Shown one piece after another: positions 1 through 7,041 of a DNA stretch of 7,041 bases. This DNA comes from a virus (lineage: Duplodnaviria > Heunggongvirae > Uroviricota > Caudoviricetes). The notes under the pieces are model-generated. The model was not told the DNA's origin and did no database searches. It saw nothing but the letters and a program-made list of their open reading frames with translations. How positions within the stretch are numbered: the stretch's first letter is position 1; every line of letters begins with the position of its first letter. The DNA lies in the IMG/VR virus record IMGVR_UViG_2534682175_000009. One strand, 5' to 3'. The position numbers and the translations under genes were made by a program.

Positions 1-1
1 G

Positions 2-1627
2 ACCGCAGAAGTCACCGCAGACAGCGGGGAATACCAGGTGCTGGCGCGCTGGGACACGCCGAAGGTGGTGAAGGGCGTGAGCTTCCTGCTTCGCCTGACC
101 GTGGCAGCGGATGACGGCCGTGAGCGGCTGGTCAGCACGGCCCGGACGACGGAAACCACTTACCGCTTCACACAACTGGCTCTGGGGAACTACAGGCTGA
201 CAGTCCGAGCAGTAAATGCGTGGGGGCAGCAGGGCGATCCGGCGTCGGTATCGTTCCGGATTGCCGCACCGGCAGCGCCGTCGCGGATTGAGCTGACGCC
301 GGGCTATTTTCAGATAACCGCCACGCCGCATCTTGCGGTTTATGACCCGACGGTACAGTTTGAGTTCTGGTTCTCGGAAAAACGGATTGCGGATATCAGG
401 CAGGTTGAAACCAGCGCGCGTTATCTTGGTACGGCACTGTACTGGATAGCCGCCAGTATCAATATCAAACCGGGCCATGATTATTATTTTTACGTTCGCA
501 GTGTGAACACCGTTGGCAAATCGGCATTCGTGGAGGCTGTCGGTCAGCCGAGTGATGATGCATCAGGCTATCTGGATTTTTTCAAAGGCGAGATAGGGAA
601 AACCCATCTGGCTCAGGAGCTGTGGACGCAGATTGATAACGGTCAGCTTGCGCCTGACCTGACTGAAATCAGGACGTCCATAACGGATGTCAGCAATGAA
701 ATAACACAGACCGTCAATAAGAAACTGGAAGACCAGAGTGCAGCGATCCAGCAGATACAGAAGGTTCAGGTTGATACAAATAATAACCTGAACAGCATGT
801 GGGCAGTGAAGCTGCAGCAGATGCAGGACGGACGCCTTTATATTGCGGGTATCGGTGCCGGTATTGAGAACACCCCTGACGGCATGCAGAGTCAGGTGCT
901 GCTGGCAGCAGACAGGATTGCGATGATTAATCCTGCGAATGGCAACACAAAGCCGATGTTTGTTGGTCAGGGCGATCAGATATTCATGAATGAAGTGTTC
1001 CTGAAACGCCTGACGGCCCCCACCATTACCAGCGGCGGTAATCCTCCGGCATTTTCCCTGACATCAGACGGGAGACTGACGGCGAAAAATGCGGATATCA
1101 GTGGCAGTGTGAATGCGAACTCAGGAACGCTCAACAATGTCACGATTAACCAGAACTGTACGATTAAGGGCATGCTGGAGGCGACCCAGGTCAGAGGAGA
1201 TTTCGTTAAAGCTGTATCAAAAGCCTTCCCGAAAAAAGTCGGTACGTGGGGTAACACGGAAACACCAAACGGTACGGTTACAGTCACCATCAGCGATGAT
1301 CATAACTTTGACCGCCAGATTATTATTCCGCCCATTATTTTTAACGGTATAGCGTATGACGATCCGGGGAGCGGAAATAACCCAGGAGGCACGCGATACA
1401 CGGGTTATGGTTTTGAAGTTCGCAAAAACGGCGTATTAATCGCATCCAGAGAAACTAAAGGGGCCATTCCCGGTAGTTACAGTGCGGTTATTGATATGCC
1501 GAGTGGCAGGGGAAGCGTCACTCTGGAGTTTAAGATTTTCCAGAAAGGCAATCAGGGGGCAGGCAATATCACCGACTGTACGGTGATTGTGACCAAAAAA
1601 GCTGCTTCCGGCATCAGTATTCGTTGA
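2..1627 (+). CDS. J: Central tail fibre / tip attachment protein J, C-terminal part (5'-truncated by window start)
   Basis: Frame is open from base 2 ([12 protein letters not shown]... precedes the GTG the ORF track uses at 38), so this is the interior of a longer gene. The translation matches my recollection of lambda gpJ, including a fibronectin-III-like stretch ([22 protein letters not shown]) and the [18 protein letters not shown] region. Ends at TGA 1625-1627. Gene order J-lom-stf-tfa is the lambda arrangement. Confidence 0.88.
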
Positions 1628-1647
1628 AATTGTTATAACCCATATAA

Positions 1648-1672
1648 GGGCACCAGAAATGGTGCCTTTTTT
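1648..1672 (+). terminator. Rho-independent terminator downstream of J
   Basis: Perfect 6-bp GC-rich stem GGCACC (1649-1654) / GGTGCC (1661-1666) with a 6-nt loop AGAAAT, immediately followed by TTTTTT (1667-1672). Located about 20 nt after the J stop. Confidence 0.7.
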
Positions 1673-1696
1673 ATTGCAGAAAAGCGAGAGGTAATT

Positions 1697-2296
1697 ATGC
1701 GTAAACTTTATGCCGCCATTTTGTCCGCAGCCATTTGTCTGGCTGTATCCGGTGCGCCTGCATGGGCGTCTGAACATCAGTCCACGCTGAGCGCGGGGTA
1801 TCTTCATGCCCGGACCAACGTTCCCGGCAGCGACGATCTGAACGGGATTAACGTGAAATACCGTTATGAGTTTACGGACACACTGGGGATGGTGACGTCA
1901 TTCAGCTATGCAGGAGACAAGAATCGCCAGATTACCCGTTACAGCGATACCCGCTGGCATGAAGATTCAGTGCGTAACCGCTGGTTCAGCGTGATGGCGG
2001 GGCCATCTGTACGCGTGAATGAATGGTTCAGTGCTTATGCGGTAGCGGGTGTGGCTTACAGCCGTGTGTCGACTTTCTCCGGGGATTATCTTCGCGTAAC
2101 TGACAACAAGGGGAAAACGCACGATGTACTGACCGGAAGTGATGACGGTCGCCACAGCAACACGTCTCTGGCGTGGGGAGCTGGCGTGCAGTTTAACCCG
2201 ACCGAATCCGTGGCCATTGATATTGCTTATGAAGGCTCCGGCAGTGGCGACTGGCGCACTGACGGTTTCATCGTGGGTGTCGGTTATAAGTTCTGA
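1697..2296 (+). CDS. lom: Lom outer-membrane beta-barrel protein (Ail/Lom/PagC/Rck/OmpX family)
   Basis: ATG at 1697 preceded by a GAGAGG Shine-Dalgarno (1686-1691). N-terminal signal peptide ([24 protein letters not shown]|SE) and a C-terminal aromatic residue (..GVGYKF) typical of outer-membrane barrels. The translation matches my recollection of lambda Lom. Stop TGA 2294-2296. Confidence 0.92.
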
Positions 2297-2322
2297 TTAG
2301 CCAGGTAACACAGTGTTATGAC

Positions 2323-2349
2323 AGCCCGCCGGTTCAGGCGGGCTTTTTT
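2323..2349 (+). terminator. Rho-independent terminator downstream of lom
   Basis: 7-bp GC-rich stem GCCCGCC (2324-2330) / GGCGGGC (2337-2343) with loop GGTTCA, followed by TTTTTT (2344-2349). Confidence 0.75.
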
Positions 2350-2360
2350 GTGGGGTGAAT

Positions 2361-5300
2361 ATGGCAGTAAAGATTTCAGGTGTACTGAAAGACGGCACAG
2401 GAAAACCAGTACAGAACTGCACAATCCAGCTGAAAGCAAAACGTAACAGCACCACGGTGGTGGTGAACACGCTGGCCTCAGAAAATCCGGATGAAGCCGG
2501 GCGTTACAGCATGGACGTTGAGTACGGTCAGTACAGCGTTATTCTGTTGGTGGAAGGATTCCCGCCGTCACATGCCGGGACCATCACCGTGTATGAAGAT
2601 TCTCAACCCGGTACGCTGAATGATTTTCTCGGTGCCATGACGGAGGATGATGCCCGTCCGGAGGCACTGCGCCGTTTTGAACTGATGGTGGAAGAGGTGG
2701 CGCGTAACGCGTCCGTAGTGGCACAGAACACGGCAGCCGCGAAGAAGTCAGCCGGCGATGCCAGCACATCTGCCCGTGAGGCGGCAACCCATGCGACTGA
2801 TGCTGCAGATTCAGCACGTGCAGCCAGCACGTCAGCCGGACAGGCCGCTTCGTCGGCTCAGTCAGCGTCTTCCAGCGCAGGAACGGCATCAACAAAGGCC
2901 ACTGAAGCCTCAAAAAGTGCTGCCGCTGCAGAGTCCTCAAAAAGCGTGGCAGCTACCAGTGCCGGTGCCGCGAAAACGTCAGAAACGAATGCTGCAGCGT
3001 CACAACAATCAGCAGCCACTTCTGCATCCACCGCGACTACGAAAGCGTCAGAAGCTGCCACCTCAGCCCGGGATGCGTCGGCTTCAAAAGAGGCGGCAAA
3101 ATCATCAGAAACGAACGCATCCTCGAGCGCCAGTAGCGCAGCTTCCTCGGCAACGGCGGCAGCAAATTCCGCGAAGGCGGCAAAAACGTCCGAGACGAAC
3201 GCCAGGTCTTCTGAGACGGCAGCGGGACAGAGCGCCTCAGCTGCGGCAGGCTCAAAAACAGCGGCTGCGTCGTCTGCCAGTGCCGCGTCAACAAGTGCCG
3301 GGCAGGCCTCAGCCAGTGCCACCGCCGCCGGAAAATCGGCAGAAAGCGCCGCATCATCCGCTTCAACAGCCACAACGAAGGCTGGCGAAGCCACTGAGCA
3401 GGCCACGGCAGCAGCGAGGTCAGCTTCCGCAGCGAAGACATCCGAAACGAACGCGAAAGCGTCGGAAACCAGCGCAGAATCCTCAAAAACGGCAGCGGCA
3501 TCGTCCGCCAGTTCGGCGGCGTCATCGGCCTCATCGGCGTCTGCTTCAAAAGATGAGGCGACCAGACAAGCGTCAGCAGCGAAGGGCAGCGCCACGACGG
3601 CATCCACGAAGGCAACAGAGGCTGCTGGCAGTGCGACGGCGGCAGCACAGAGCAAGAGTACGGCAGAATCCGCAGCAACGCGCGCCGAGACAGCAGCAAA
3701 ACGGGCAGAGGATATTGCATCCGCTGTGGCGCTTGAGGATGCGAGCACGACGAAAAAGGGGATAGTACAGCTCAGTAGTGCGACTAACAGCACTTCCGAG
3801 TCACTGGCGGCAACACCAAAAGCCGTTAAGGCCGCGTATGACCTGGCTAACGGGAAATACACCGCACAGGATGCAACGACAGCACAGAAAGGGATAATCC
3901 AGCTAAGCAGCGCGACCAACAGCACGTCTGAAACGCTGGCGGCAACGCCAAAGGCAGTAAAAGCAGCCAATGACAATGCTGAGAAACGTCTGCAGAAAGA
4001 TCAGAACGGTGCGGATATCCCTGGCAAAGACACCTTTACGAAAAATATTGGTGCCTGCCGTGCCTTTGGTGGGTCAGTAAGCACAACAACAGGAAACTGG
4101 ACGACTGCACAGTTTATCGAGTGGCTGGATTCTCAGGGAGCATTTAACCATCCCTACTGGATGTGCAAGGGTTCCTGGTCTTATGGCAATAATAAAATCA
4201 TTACTGATACTGACTGCGGTAATATTCATCTCGCCGGAGCTGTCATTGAAGTAATGGGGATAAAGTCAGCGATGACGATCCGCATTACCACTCCGACCAC
4301 CTCCACTGGTGGTGGAACAACTAACGCCCAGTTTACCTATATTAATCACGGAACAGATTATTCACCTGGCTGGCGAAGGGACTATAACTCCAGAAATAAG
4401 CCAACGGCATCAGAGATCGGGGCGTTACCGTCAGGTGGAACAGCAGTATCATCAGTTAATCTGTCTTCAAAAGGTCGGGTAACCGCGCTGACAGACAATA
4501 CGCAGGGGGCAACAGGTCTTGAGTTATACGAGGTGTATAACAACGGATATCCAACAGCGTATGGAAATATCATTCACCTGAAAGGGATGACAGCCGTTGG
4601 CGAAGGTGAGTTACTCATCGGCTGGAGTGGTACAAGCGGTGCTCATGCTCCGGCATTTATTCGTTCACGACGGGATACGACCGACGCAAACTGGTCGCCG
4701 TGGGCGCAGCTTTACACCTCGGCTCATCCTCCTGCAGAGTTTTATCCAGTCGGTGCACCAATCCCGTGGCCATCAGATAACGTTCCGTCTGGTTATGCCC
4801 TGATGCAGGGGCAGACTTTTGACAAATCTGCATACCCGAAACTTGCAGCCGCTTATCCGTCAGGCGTGATCCCTGATATGCGTAGCTGGACGATTAAGGG
4901 CAAGCCTGCCAGTGGTCGGGCCGTATTGTCTCAGGAACAGGACGGCATTAAATCGCACACCCACAGCGCCAGCGTATCCAGTACGGATTTGGGGACGAAA
5001 ACCACATCGTCGTTTGATTACGGCACTAAATCCACGAATAACACCGGGGCGCATACGCACAGTGTGAGCGGTACAGCCGCAAGTGCCGGAAACCATACTC
5101 ATAGTGTCACAGGCGCATCAGCAGTCAGCCAGTGGTCACAAAATGGGTCAGTACATAAGGTTGTGTCTGCGGCCAGTGTGAATACAAGTGCTGCAGGAGC
5201 GCACACTCATAGTGTCAGCGGCACAGCTGCATCTGCAGGTGCTCACGCACATACTGTCGGTATTGGTGCTCATACGCACTCTGTTTCGATTGGCTCACAT

Positions 5301-5387
5301 GGACACACCATCACCGTTAACGCTGCGGGTAACGCGGAAAACACCGTCAAAAACATCGCATTTAACTACATTGTGAGGCTTGCATAA
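2361..5387 (+). CDS. stf: Side tail fibre protein Stf, intact full-length, mosaic
   Basis: The ORF track opens at GTG 2355, but the ATG at 2361 gives [26 protein letters not shown]..., the lambda Stf N-terminus as I recall it, and GGGGTG upstream serves as ribosome-binding site. The C-terminus (...[37 protein letters not shown]...[31 protein letters not shown]) also matches my recollection of lambda Stf. The middle part differs. Stop TAA 5385-5387. Confidence 0.92.
2740..3740 (+). repeat. Ala/Ser/Thr-rich degenerate repeat region encoding the Stf shaft
   Basis: About 330 codons made almost entirely of A/S/T/K/E/G with recurring motifs: AAKTSETNA three times (about nt 2967, 3176, 3430) plus [11 protein letters not shown], and TSAGQAS/SAAS blocks. 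The low complexity leaves two other frames stop-free here, one sense and one antisense. Confidence 0.8.
3756..3833 (+). repeat. Conserved tail-fibre linker motif, copy 1 ([26 protein letters not shown])
   Basis: Read directly from the stf translation. This motif is, to my knowledge, a conserved block shared among otherwise unrelated phage tail fibre genes. Confidence 0.75.
3888..3965 (+). repeat. Conserved tail-fibre linker motif, copy 2 ([26 protein letters not shown])
   Basis: Second copy 44 codons downstream of the first. The protein is nearly identical (one conservative I/V change and one S/T change), but the DNA differs at many third-codon positions (e.g. GTACAGCTCAGTAGTGCGACT vs ATCCAGCTAAGCAGCGCGACC). 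Confidence 0.75.
4950..5310 (+). repeat. His-x-His repeat array in the Stf C-terminal tip
   Basis: Recurring HxH motifs in Gly/Ser/Ala/Thr context: [73 protein letters not shown]. The sub-repeats are imperfect at the DNA level. Confidence 0.8.
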
Positions 5388-5971
5388 TGGCATTCAGAAT
5401 GAGTGAACAACCACGGACCATAAAAATTTATAATCTGCTGGCCGGAACTAATGAATTTATTGGTGAAGGTGATGCATATATTCCGCCTCATACAGGTCTG
5501 CCAGCAAACAGTACCGATATTGCACCGCCAGATATTCCGGCAGGCTTCGTGGCTGTTTTCAACAGTGATGAGGCATCGTGGCATCTCGTTGAAGACCATC
5601 GGGGTAAAACGGTTTATGACGTAGCGTCAGGGGACGCGTTATTTATTTCTGAACTCGGTCCGTTACCGGAAAATGTTACCTGGTTATCGCCGGAAGGGGA
5701 GTTTCAGAAGTGGAACGGCACAGCCTGGGTGAAAGATGCAGAAGCAGAAAAACTGTTCCGGATCCGGGAGGCGGAAGAAACAAAAAACAGCCTGATGCAG
5801 GTAGCCAGTGAGCATATAGCGCCACTTCAGGATGCTGTAGATCTGGAGATCGCAACGGAGGAAGAAACCTCATTGCTGGAAGCCTGGAAAAAATATCGGG
5901 TGTTGCTGAACCGTGTTAATACAACAACTGCACCGGATATTGAATGGCCAACAGTACCCATTATCGAATAG
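5387..5971 (+). CDS. tfa: Tail fibre assembly protein (chaperone) Tfa
   Basis: 194 codons. ATG 5387-5389 overlaps the stf TAA by one base (TAATG), and the GAGG 8-11 nt upstream can act as Shine-Dalgarno. The translation ([78 protein letters not shown]...) matches my recollection of lambda Tfa. Stop TAG 5969-5971. Confidence 0.92.
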
Positions 5972-5982
5972 TGCATTACGAA

Positions 5983-6015
5983 CTGCAGGATATTATATGG
6001 GATAATATTCTGCAG
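5983..6015. repeat. Inverted repeat between convergent genes; candidate terminator for the late tail transcript
   Basis: CTGCAGGATATTAT (5983-5996) and ATAATATTCTGCAG (6002-6015) pair at 13 of 14 positions around a 5-nt spacer ATGGG. On the + strand it is followed by TTTATT. On the - strand the following sequence is not T-rich, so it is a weaker terminator for the cargo gene. It sits exactly at the G+C composition break. Confidence 0.4.
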
Positions 6016-6044
6016 TTTATTGGGGCTGTATTTTAAAAAGGTGT

Positions 6045-7041
6045 TTATTTTGAGTGAATTATCACCTTGTTTTTTCCGGTTCTTTTGGCTTGATATAACG
6101 CTTTATCGGCATTGACTAACATTTCAGATGGGCTGAGATTATTCTCTTTTGAAGTAAAGCAACCAATACTGACAGTTATTTTCTCAGGTCCATGCGATAA
6201 TAATTTTTCCGAGCATTGCTCTTCAATGTTTTTTCTGATTCGCTCTGCAATTGATAGCAAGAGCTTTTGAGTATTACCTTTAATGATAATACCGAACTCC
6301 TCACCGCCTAAGCGCCCTAATATATCCTCTTTCCTGATGGATTTTTTTATTATTCTGGTAACCATTACTATGACTTGATCACCCATATGATGCCCCCATT
6401 TGTCATTGATGCTTTTGAAACTGTCAATATCTAACATTATTACTGAGAAATCATGGTGTTTTGATATATTCTTCAATGAGTCAATAAAGTATCTTCTATT
6501 GTATGTATTCGTTAGTGGATCATGAATTGCCATATGATTAGCATGATTTAATTTCCTGAAAATATAATACATGAGTGTTGAAATGATATAAATCATTGAT
6601 ATCAATTCAAGAAATTTTGTCATGTACCATGCAGGATGGGATTTATCAATAAAATACAATAAAATTAGATTATTGCATACTGACACTATACTAATAAGTA
6701 TTATACACAACCATATTTTTGAGTAATTACGTATGCTGATGCATGAGCTGATAAGTAATACAAGCCAAAATACTGATATTATTTTGGTGTACACGATATT
6801 CCACGTCGGCAAATGACGATTCAGCGAGTATTGTATAATATTAAGACTATATTTTATATTGTCACTGCTTAGATTTTTTGCTACAAACGGAGTAATAAAA
6901 AGAATTAATATTGACAAAACAACAATTATTATGTTTCTTTTATCTTCTAAAACACTTTTATTTTTAACATTGGTGGAATAAACAGCCAGAAAGATTATAG
7001 ATATAAAGCTGAACTGACGGAATAGATAATATATTGCGATA
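6045..7041 (-). CDS. Multi-pass membrane protein with C-terminal GGDEF domain (predicted diguanylate cyclase); N-terminus beyond window
   Basis: The - strand translation has hallmark GGDEF-domain motifs: DIDSFKSINDKWGHHMGD (metal/substrate-binding region), the active-site motif RLGGEEFGI (nt 6294-6308), and an RxxD inhibitory-site motif (RKED) exactly five residues upstream of GGEEF. Preceding it are at least three hydrophobic helices (IISVFWLVLLISSCISI, IWLCIILISIVSV, FLELISMIYIISTLMYYIF). The ORF track starts at TTG 6917, but the same frame has no stop up to base 7041 and encodes more hydrophobic sequence (...FSFISIIFLAVYS...), so the gene probably starts outside the window. Stop TAA on the - strand at 6045-6047. 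Strongly AT-rich, unlike the tail genes. Confidence 0.85.
   Translation of the reverse strand, partial: IAIYYLFRQFSFISIIFLAVYSTNVKNKSVLEDKRNIIIVVLSILILFITPFVAKNLSSDNIKYSLNIIQYSLNRHLPTWNIVYTKIISVFWLVLLISSCISIRNYSKIWLCIILISIVSVCNNLILLYFIDKSHPAWYMTKFLELISMIYIISTLMYYIFRKLNHANHMAIHDPLTNTYNRRYFIDSLKNISKHHDFSVIMLDIDSFKSINDKWGHHMGDQVIVMVTRIIKKSIRKEDILGRLGGEEFGIIIKGNTQKLLLSIAERIRKNIEEQCSEKLLSHGPEKITVSIGCFTSKENNLSPSEMLVNADKALYQAKRTGKNKVIIHSK

What the first reader, a model, noticed from the sequence alone, without database searches (positions are those of the whole stretch)
6918..7041. The called start of the GGDEF gene is probably not the real start
The six-frame track starts the gene at TTG 6917, but the same - strand frame runs without a stop to the window edge. 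The extra 41 codons read IAIYYLFRQFSFISIIFLAVYSTNVKNKSVLEDKRNIIIVVL..., i.e. additional hydrophobic helix-like sequence, and contain no ATG, GTG or TTG. The membrane domain is therefore larger than the 290-residue model, and its identity (MASE-like or a novel sensor) cannot be judged from this window.
Basis: seen in the sequence. Interest (0 to 1): 0.4.

Follow-up and report, generated by a model that had tools for sequence, protein, structure and literature searches.

The report
Window cuts off known dgcX gene
The window ends inside dgcX, a known prophage-associated Escherichia coli diguanylate cyclase, so the "TTG start" is an artefact of the cut, and the real ATG start lies 336 bases beyond the edge.

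Summary
The minus-strand frame of the GGDEF gene stays open from TTG 6917 to the window edge: 41 codons with no ATG, GTG or TTG.

The extension is larger than it could see.

- **Identity.** Window 6045-7041 is 100% identical to dgcX of E. coli SE11 and 12 other listed complete genomes. There the gene is 1332 nt (443 aa).
- **True start.** The ATG lies 112 codons beyond base 7041. It has a cAGGTG Shine-Dalgarno sequence 5 nt upstream and an in-frame stop 25 codons further up.
- **The called start.** TTG 6917 is Leu154, in the middle of transmembrane helix 5. It has no ribosome-binding site.
- **Membrane domain.** It is Pfam MASE4, not a novel sensor. The window fragment alone already scores E = 3e-23.
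- **Conservation of the start.** The ATG and Shine-Dalgarno sequence are kept in a divergent allele. The N-terminus aligns Met1 to Met1 with the paralogue DgcT. Published E359A/E360A mutants fit the 443-aa numbering.

DgcX was described in 2014 in the O104:H4 outbreak strain, so this is already known and of low interest.

One side observation: dgcX lies on the phage side of the lambda att core, between sib and tfa. That places it inside the prophage as cargo.

The parts
6045..7041 (-). The 3' 997 nt of dgcX: last base of codon 112, codons 113-443 and the TAA stop. The gene is cut by the window edge, and its first 336 nt lie outside the window.
   Evidence: 100% identical over all 997 nt to the annotated 1332-nt CDS of E. 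coli SE11 (WP_000586336.1) and 12 other listed complete genomes.
6918..7040 (-). They are residues 113-153 of DgcX: transmembrane helix 4 (IAIYYLFRQFSFISIIFLAVYS), a positively charged cytoplasmic loop (TNVKNKSVLEDKR) and the first residues of helix 5.
   Evidence: The NDIAIYYLFRQ motif is shared with DgcT and CdgI.
6915..6917 (-). The TTG called as the start by the six-frame track. It is really Leu154, inside transmembrane helix 5, with no Shine-Dalgarno sequence upstream (aacataataattgttgttTTG).
   Evidence: Leu154 is invariant in DgcX, DgcT and CdgI.
6555..7040 (-). The part of the MASE4 integral-membrane domain that lies in the window (residues 113-274). By my hydropathy model, TM4 is 6975-7040, TM5 6879-6935, TM6 6735-6785, TM7 6648-6716 and TM8 6558-6626.
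   Evidence: Pfam PF17158: window fragment 82.8 bits; full protein 123.8 bits, residues 40-274. Hydropathy.
6066..6530 (-). GGDEF diguanylate cyclase domain, residues 283-437.
   Evidence: PF00990 at 151.7 bits (window fragment) and 150.9 bits (full protein); TIGR00254 at 161.9 bits; PDB matches to PleD, WspR and DosC GGDEF domains.
6294..6308 (-). Active-site (A-site) motif GGEEF, residues 357-361.
   Evidence: The published catalytic mutants E359A and E360A (PMC10459773) match this numbering.
6324..6335 (-). Inhibitory I-site motif RxxD (RKED, residues 348-351), five residues upstream of GGEEF.
   Evidence: Described for DgcX in PMC4287979.
5983..6015 (.). AT-rich inverted repeat in the 73-nt spacer between the convergent stops of tfa (5971) and dgcX (6045). 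It is probably a bidirectional terminator.
   Evidence: Fold energy -15.8 kcal/mol, z = -5.76, and 0 of 200 shuffles fold as well. The consensus terminator scan did not flag it.
5387..5971 (+). Tail fibre assembly gene (tfa) of the adjacent lambdoid prophage. It follows the end of J (38-1627), lom (1697-2296) and stf (2355-5387). This is the genomic context typical of dgcX.
   Evidence: Pfam Caudo_TAP, phage_tail_N, Ail_Lom and tip-attachment protein J domains. The same gene order occurs in SE11 and O104:H4.

Best explanation
The window ends inside dgcX, the accessory diguanylate cyclase gene of E. coli that always sits next to lambdoid prophage tail genes. The 290-aa "TTG 6917" model is an artefact: it is simply the first start-like codon after the window edge. 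The real gene is 1332 nt (443 aa) and starts at an ATG 336 nt beyond base 7041.

The protein has about eight transmembrane helices. One N-terminal helix is followed by the Pfam MASE4 domain (residues 40-274), then a short linker, then a cytoplasmic GGDEF domain (283-437). The GGDEF domain carries an intact GGEEF active site and an RxxD inhibitory site.

Inferred mechanism, from established knowledge of the GGDEF family:

- The membrane domain holds the enzyme in the inner membrane and probably controls dimerisation of the GGDEF domains in response to an unknown signal.
- The dimer condenses two GTP into c-di-GMP.
- Product binding at RxxD limits output.

Shown by others:

- dgcX is expressed more strongly than any other E. 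coli diguanylate cyclase gene.
- Its overexpression raises cellulose production.
- E359A and E360A catalytic mutants were built and tested in that overexpression system.

Shown here: the gene's identity, its true start, its domain make-up and its position inside the prophage.
For: **Identity**

- Window 6045-7041 is 100% identical to 13 listed complete E. coli genomes, SE11 among them. In all, 770 of 5,426 genomes carry the gene.
- Richter et al. 2014 name SE11, left of uspF-ompN, as a dgcX carrier. The SE11 locus shows exactly that context.

**Start**

- The SE11 CDS is 5666-6997 of L001, 443 aa.
- The ATG is the first ATG, GTG or TTG after an in-frame stop 25 codons upstream. AGGTG sits 5 nt before it.
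- The same ATG, Shine-Dalgarno sequence and 443-aa length occur in 8 of 10 independent loci. The two exceptions are one locus cut by a contig end and one disrupted copy.
- In the divergent allele of strain STW0522-31, the ATG and CAGGTG are conserved. Divergence drops from 31.5% upstream to 8.9%, 4.5% and 15.2% at codon positions 1, 2 and 3 of codons 1-112.
- DgcX aligns Met1 to Met1 with DgcT, and residue 42 pairs with residue 42 in the pairwise alignment.
- GGEEF falls at 357-361, matching the published E359A/E360A mutants.
- The exact 443-aa protein is recorded on 713 contigs. The 290-aa model is recorded once, on a 1,204-bp contig.

**Domains**

- MASE4 at 123.8 bits and GGDEF at 150.9 bits.
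- 38% identity to both DgcT and CdgI over nearly the full length.
- Hydropathy gives seven segments above 1.6 plus one weaker segment, and the loop charges fit the positive-inside rule.
Against: - The window's own genome is not among the collections searched. The best whole-window match is 97.3%, so the 336 nt upstream are inferred from relatives that are identical over the overlapping 997 nt, not read from the source.
- A few copies are damaged. Six of 772 genomes lack most of the 5' segment, and one metagenomic copy is disrupted.
- No experiment mapping the N-terminus or the translation start was found.
- The number of helices is disputed in the literature: eight in PMC4287979 and six by SMART in PMC10459773. 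I checked it only by hydropathy, not with a dedicated topology predictor or a structure model.
- The signal sensed by MASE4 is unknown.
Confidence: 0.95

Rival explanations
1. TTG 6917 is the true start, and the gene encodes a 290-aa protein with a short membrane anchor.
For: It is the first ATG, GTG or TTG in frame after the window edge. A protein of exactly this sequence exists once in the 15-billion-protein collection.
Against: - That single record sits on a 1,204-bp contig, so it is the same truncation artefact.
- There is no Shine-Dalgarno sequence before the TTG.
- The codon is an invariant Leu in the middle of a transmembrane helix.
- The upstream frame is open, matches MASE4 and shows purifying selection.
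- The RefSeq annotation of each of the three loci inspected (SE11, O104:H4, STW0522-31) starts at the upstream ATG.
Confidence: 0.01
2. In the particular genome the window comes from, dgcX is broken just beyond the edge by a contig end, an insertion element, a deletion or a nonsense mutation. In that case no intact 443-aa protein is made there.
For: - The window's exact source is not in the collections.
- About 1% of carriers lack most of the 5' segment.
- One metagenomic copy is disrupted (L012).
- Many partial records exist.
Against: - 766 of 772 genomes carrying the 5' segment have at least 80% of it.
- The window part has no defect and is identical to intact alleles.
Confidence: 0.04
3. 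The N-terminal membrane region is a novel sensor domain unrelated to known MASE families.
For: - No solved structure covers residues 1-250.
- The sensed signal is unknown.
- Residues 1-39 (helix 1) lie outside the Pfam MASE4 model.
Against: - The Pfam MASE4 match is far above the gathering score, 123.8 against 28.4 bits.
- DgcX is 38% identical over nearly the full length to the MASE4 proteins DgcT and CdgI.
- The literature already calls DgcX a MASE4-GGDEF protein.
Confidence: 0.01

Closest known systems
DgcX of E. coli O104:H4, 55989 and SE11 (Richter et al. 2014, PMC4287979; Cimdins-Ahne et al. 2023, PMC10459773)
   Same: It is the same gene. The 331 residues encoded in the window are identical to SE11 DgcX. 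They carry the same GGEEF and RxxD motifs and have the same neighbours, the tail fibre genes of a lambdoid prophage.
   Different: Nothing differs in the gene itself. The adjacent stf and J tail genes of this window are a mosaic not seen exactly in any of 5,426 complete genomes; the best match is 97.3%.
DgcT (YcdT) of E. coli K-12
   Same: It shares the MASE4-GGDEF architecture and has nearly the same length (452 against 443 aa). It is 38% identical, the N-termini align Met1 to Met1, and it has an intact GGEEF.
   Different: It is a chromosomal core gene next to pgaABCD and is reported as weakly expressed (PMC4287979). dgcX is accessory, linked to a prophage, 31% G+C and strongly expressed.
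CdgI (YeaI) of E. coli K-12
   Same: It has the MASE4 plus GGDEF-like architecture and is 38% identical over 426 residues.
   Different: Its A-site is degenerate (EGEVF in the alignment), so it is regarded as a c-di-GMP binding protein and not a cyclase. It also has an N-terminus about 47 residues longer.
Cargo genes (morons) in the b-region slot of lambdoid phages
   Same: dgcX lies between the att/sib region and tfa, on the phage side of the att core. It has its own promoter-like site and a hairpin after its stop, and its G+C is much lower than that of the tail genes.
   Different: None of the 50,697 phage records searched carries it. The original description treated it as a flanking gene that hitch-hikes by specialised transduction.

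Membership tests
DgcX (E. coli accessory diguanylate cyclase) | Sequence identity to the dgcX gene of the strains in which it was defined (O104:H4, 55989, SE11) | tested here: met
   100% over 997 nt to SE11. The SE11 protein is 98.4% identical to that of O104:H4 strain 2009EL-2071.
DgcX (E. coli accessory diguanylate cyclase) | Location directly next to lambdoid prophage DNA | tested here: met
   In the window, J, lom, stf and tfa are followed by convergent dgcX. SE11 and O104:H4 have the same order.
DgcX (E. coli accessory diguanylate cyclase) | Very high expression from sigma-70 and sigma-S promoters | not testable with these tools
   Reported in PMC4287979. Here I found only a promoter-like TTGACA-17-TAGTAT site about 70 nt upstream of the ATG in SE11. 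That site lies outside the window.
MASE4 (Pfam PF17158) | Profile match above the curated gathering score | tested here: met
   Full protein: 123.8 bits against a 28.4-bit cut-off, residues 40-274, profile 4-237 of 239. Window fragment alone: 82.8 bits, profile 76-237.
MASE4 (Pfam PF17158) | Multi-pass integral membrane domain N-terminal to a signalling output domain | tested here: met
   Hydropathy gives seven 19-residue segments with H of 1.7-3.0 plus one weaker segment. Loop charges fit N-in and C-in. The GGDEF domain follows at residue 283. The helix count (8 against the published 6) was not checked with a dedicated predictor.
MASE4 (Pfam PF17158) | Homology to E. coli YcdT and YeaI, the MASE4 proteins the literature pairs with DgcX | tested here: met
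   BLASTP E = 2e-83 and 3e-91, 38% identity, covering the membrane domain.
Active GGDEF diguanylate cyclase | GGDEF domain profile match | tested here: met
   PF00990 at 150.9 bits; TIGR00254 at 161.9 bits.
Active GGDEF diguanylate cyclase | Intact GG[D/E]EF A-site | tested here: met
   GGEEF at residues 357-361, window 6294-6308.
Active GGDEF diguanylate cyclase | RxxD I-site five residues upstream of the A-site (feedback-inhibited subclass) | tested here: met
   RKED at residues 348-351, window 6324-6335.
Active GGDEF diguanylate cyclase | Synthesis of c-di-GMP from GTP | not testable with these tools
   Only indirect evidence from the literature. Overexpression raises cellulose production, and E359A/E360A catalytic mutants were tested alongside the wild type (PMC10459773).

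The most novel reading that the evidence does not exclude
dgcX may be a true phage-borne cargo gene (moron), not a host-side passenger. In copies at the lambda attachment site it lies inside the att-bounded prophage, filling the slot between sib and tfa that is nearly empty in HK97. Lysogeny itself would then deliver a strongly expressed diguanylate cyclase. That is lysogenic conversion of c-di-GMP and biofilm behaviour, which differs from the published idea of hitch-hiking by specialised transduction.
Probability: 0.7. Interest if true: 0.3.

Novelty: already known. Interest (0 to 1): 0.08.

Why it matters
For annotation, the lesson is practical. An ORF that reaches a window or contig edge must be reported as partial, not trimmed to the first start-like codon. 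Here the trimming removed 153 residues and placed the "start" inside a transmembrane helix.

[quoted passage not shown] It has been linked to the biofilm and curli phenotype of the 2011 O104:H4 outbreak strain. All of that was already published.

The one point that adds to the literature is that dgcX sits inside the prophage boundaries. That makes it a candidate lysogenic-conversion gene.

Tried and rejected
- **Source of the window.** A megablast of the whole window against 5,426 complete E. coli genomes gave no exact match; the best was 97.3%. None of eight IMG/VR contigs carrying dgcX is the source either.
- **Phage records.** A megablast of dgcX against 50,697 phage records found nothing.
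- **Regulatory RNA upstream.** An Rfam search of the region upstream of dgcX in SE11 gave only sub-threshold hits: CssrB at 44 bits against a gathering score of 76, plus IsrM and STnc310. There is no riboswitch or known leader.
- **Terminators.** The consensus scan found none in L001 5150-7100. The AT-rich hairpin after the stop emerged only from folding.
- **Solved structures.** The sequence search covers only the GGDEF domain and the end of helix 8. Nothing covers the rest of MASE4.
- **Other species.** A pattern-based scan of 185,579 species-representative genomes found DgcX at 98% only in E. coli, plus one 2.5-kb contig binned as Bacillota that is probably contamination. The next relatives are at 40% or less, so no donor lineage was identified. 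The scan depended on two peptide patterns, so intermediate relatives could have been missed.
- **Searches not run.** I did not run the large homology searches or a structure prediction. The start and the identity were already settled, and full-length DgcX is not a window sequence.
- **Rejected readings.** I considered TTG 6917 as an internal start for a short isoform, and a novel sensor domain. Both are listed under the rival explanations.

Full report
**1. The observation**

On the minus strand, window 6045-7040 translates as 331 codons followed by a stop, with no internal stop.

The codons before TTG 6917 contain no ATG, GTG or TTG. The ORF listing reports the mechanical model 6045..6917, 290 aa, TTG.

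The other five frames over 6918-7041 all contain stops.

At the gene's 31% G+C, an open run of 41 codons has a chance probability of about 0.03. The run alone is only suggestive, and homology makes it decisive.

**2. What the gene is**

Pfam scans show the window is the right end of a lambdoid prophage:

- the end of tail-tip gene J (38-1627)
- lom (1697-2296)
- the side tail fibre stf (2355-5387)
- tfa (5387-5971)
- a convergent GGDEF gene

A megablast of window 6045-7041 against 5,426 complete E. coli genomes finds the gene in 770 of them. Thirteen listed genomes match at 100% identity, including strain SE11.

In SE11 the annotated CDS is 1332 nt (443 aa, WP_000586336.1). It lies between uspF and the prophage gene tfaR.

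Richter et al. 2014 (PMC4287979) named this gene dgcX. They cite SE11 explicitly, with the gene to the left of uspF-ompN and next to a prophage. They describe an N-terminal hydrophobic domain of about 270 aa with eight predicted helices, an intact A-site and I-site, and paralogy to YcdT and YeaI.

Cimdins-Ahne et al. 2023 (PMC10459773) call it a MASE4-GGDEF protein and made E359A and E360A mutants.

**3. The true start**

In SE11 (locus L001) the window edge corresponds to position 6001. The frame continues upstream for 112 codons to an ATG at 5666.

- This ATG is the first ATG, GTG or TTG after an in-frame stop 25 codons further up.
- AGGTG lies 5 nt before it.
- TTG 6917 is therefore Leu154, and the window begins at residue 113.

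Five lines of evidence support this ATG.

1. The identical ATG, Shine-Dalgarno sequence and 443-aa length occur in 8 of 10 loci examined: SE11, O104:H4 and six IMG/VR contigs. The exceptions are one locus cut by a contig end and one disrupted copy.
2. A divergent allele in strain STW0522-31, in a different genomic context, keeps the ATG and CAGGTG and is also annotated at 443 aa. Divergence from SE11 is 31.5% in the 295 aligned upstream bases. It is 8.9%, 4.5% and 15.2% at codon positions 1, 2 and 3 of codons 1-112, the pattern expected of a coding region.
3. DgcX aligns Met1 to Met1 with K-12 DgcT, and residue 42 pairs with residue 42 in the pairwise alignment.
4. In the 443-aa numbering GGEEF falls at 357-361, so the published E359A and E360A mutants hit the two glutamates.
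5. The exact 443-aa sequence is on record from 713 contigs. The 290-aa model is on record once, from a 1,204-bp contig, which is the same truncation artefact. A 446-aa variant has the same start plus a three-residue duplication in the first outer loop.

The TTG at 6917 has no purine-rich tract upstream. It is also an invariant leucine in the three paralogues.

**4. Domain make-up and topology**

The full protein matches MASE4 (PF17158) at 123.8 bits over residues 40-274 and GGDEF (PF00990) at 150.9 bits over residues 283-437. NCBIfam gives only the generic GGDEF domain model above its cut-off.

The window fragment alone already matches MASE4 at 82.8 bits, starting at profile position 76. That both identifies the domain and shows that about 75 profile positions were missing.

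DgcX is 38% identical to both DgcT and CdgI over nearly the full length.

A Kyte-Doolittle scan gives seven segments above 1.6 and one weaker segment (72-97). My eight-helix model is:

| Helix | Residues |
|---|---|
| TM1 | 10-28 |
| TM2 | 42-65 |
| TM3 | 72-97 |
| TM4 | 113-134 |
| TM5 | 148-166 |
| TM6 | 198-214 |
| TM7 | 221-243 |
| TM8 | 251-273 |

The model puts most lysines and arginines in the predicted cytoplasmic loops. It leaves a 31-residue outer loop at 167-197.

It agrees with the eight helices of Richter et al. and not with the six from SMART. It is a hydropathy model only.

The window edge falls at the first residue of helix 4, and TTG 6917 falls inside helix 5.

No solved structure covers the membrane domain beyond the end of helix 8.

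**5. How it works**

*Shown here:* an intact GGEEF A-site and an RKED I-site five residues upstream.

*From the literature:* very high expression dependent on sigma-70 and sigma-S. Overexpression raises cellulose production, and E359A/E360A catalytic mutants were tested in the same system.

*Inferred from general knowledge of GGDEF enzymes:* the membrane domain controls dimerisation of the catalytic domains, two GTP are condensed to c-di-GMP, and the product inhibits through the I-site.

The signal sensed by MASE4 is unknown. A literature search found nothing on it.

**6. Caveat**

The window's own genome is not in the collections; the best whole-window match is 97.3%. The upstream 336 nt are therefore inferred from relatives that are identical across the overlap.

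Of 772 genomes with the 5' segment, 766 hold at least 80% of it. I put about 4% on the gene being broken in the source.

**7. Side findings**

*Position inside the prophage*

- In O104:H4 (L005) the 15-bp lambda att core lies at 2452, between ybhB (which ends at 2361) and dgcX (ATG at 3107).
- The 400 nt on the dgcX side of the core match the attP-to-sib region of phage HK97 at 95-98.6%.
- In HK97 the order is int, att core, sib, then tfa after about 230 nt.
- So dgcX occupies the slot between sib and tfa on the phage side of the core. That is inside the prophage, where lambda has its b region.
- The same 655-nt distance from core to ATG is seen in two IMG/VR contigs.
- The module shared between the SE11 and O104:H4 contexts starts at a hairpin about 297 nt upstream of the ATG.
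- Together with the G+C drop from about 0.5 to 0.28-0.36, this points to a cargo gene (moron) and away from the published specialised-transduction idea.
- However, no phage record in the collection searched carries the gene.

*Other points*

- 87 genomes carry an allele whose 5' 441 nt are only 80-90% identical (86.9% in the three sampled), while the 3' 997 nt are at least 95% identical in all but one genome.
- A scan of species-representative genomes found DgcX only in E. coli, and the next relatives are at 40% identity or less.

**8. Verdict**

The gene is the already described dgcX, and its membrane domain is MASE4. Interest is low.

Noticed in passing
L005 2448-3106 (O104:H4 str. 2009EL-2071); also L006 at 56 and L009 at 2021: The lambda att core lies 655 nt upstream of the dgcX ATG, between host ybhB and dgcX. 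The stretch next to it matches the HK97 attP-to-sib region at 95-98.6%. So dgcX is on the phage side of att, in the slot between sib and tfa, and not outside the prophage as the specialised-transduction model implies.
   Followed up: partly
L004 3001-4437 (strain STW0522-31), compared with L001 5560-6997: A second dgcX allele exists. In 87 genomes the 5' 441 nt (promoter region plus codons 1-112) are only 80-90% identical, 86.9% in the three sampled. The 3' 997 nt are at least 95% identical in all but one genome. The gene therefore looks mosaic, with a more diverged front of the sensor domain. In STW0522-31 it sits next to a tfa remnant and an alpha/beta hydrolase gene.
   Followed up: partly
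window 5983-6015: A 33-nt AT-rich inverted repeat (CTGCAGAATATTAT...ATAATATCCTGCAG) lies between the convergent stops of tfa and dgcX. It folds at -15.8 kcal/mol with z = -5.8 and is probably a bidirectional terminator. The G+C-based terminator scan missed it.
   Followed up: partly
window 1-7041: G+C drops from about 0.47-0.64 in the tail genes to 0.28-0.36 in dgcX, as expected for a foreign cargo gene.
   Followed up: yes
window 1-5400: The J-lom-stf part of the window has no exact match in 5,426 complete E. coli genomes; the best match is 97.3%. Different relatives match different segments best, which is the usual mosaic pattern of tail fibre genes.
   Followed up: no
L001 5369-5415 (SE11), equivalent to L005 2810-2856: A G+C-rich hairpin followed by a T run (CAACCGCAGCACG...CGTGCTGCGGTTTTCTTTAT) lies about 297-250 nt upstream of the dgcX ATG. 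It is shared with HK97, where it sits between sib and tfa. It marks the left edge of the sequence shared by dgcX copies at different chromosomal sites. A weak sub-threshold Rfam hit (CssrB, 44 bits against a gathering score of 76) overlaps it on the opposite strand.
   Followed up: partly
L001 5565-5593: A promoter-like site, TTGACA-17 nt-TAGTAT (10 of 12 matches), lies about 70 nt upstream of the dgcX ATG. It could underlie the reported very high expression. The -35 hexamer differs in the divergent allele (TTAATA).
   Followed up: no
L001 5277-5332: Four closely spaced copies of a TTTTGCC(C/A)C-like motif lie between uspF and the dgcX module in SE11. They overlap a 57-codon annotated hypothetical gene on the opposite strand. 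Their function is unknown, and they may belong to the Rac-type attachment region.
   Followed up: no
L012 (IMGVR_UViG_3300011888_000045), around 591-756: This metagenomic copy of dgcX has an in-frame stop in its 5' part, so the longest ORF starts at an internal ATG (388 aa). It is a disrupted allele.
   Followed up: no
L015 (JAEWTL010000008.1, a 2.5-kb contig of a MAG labelled Bacillota): A 98%-identical dgcX sits on a short contig binned into a Bacillota MAG. This is almost certainly a binning contaminant from E. coli. Among species-representative genomes, no relative falls between 98% and 40% identity.
   Followed up: no
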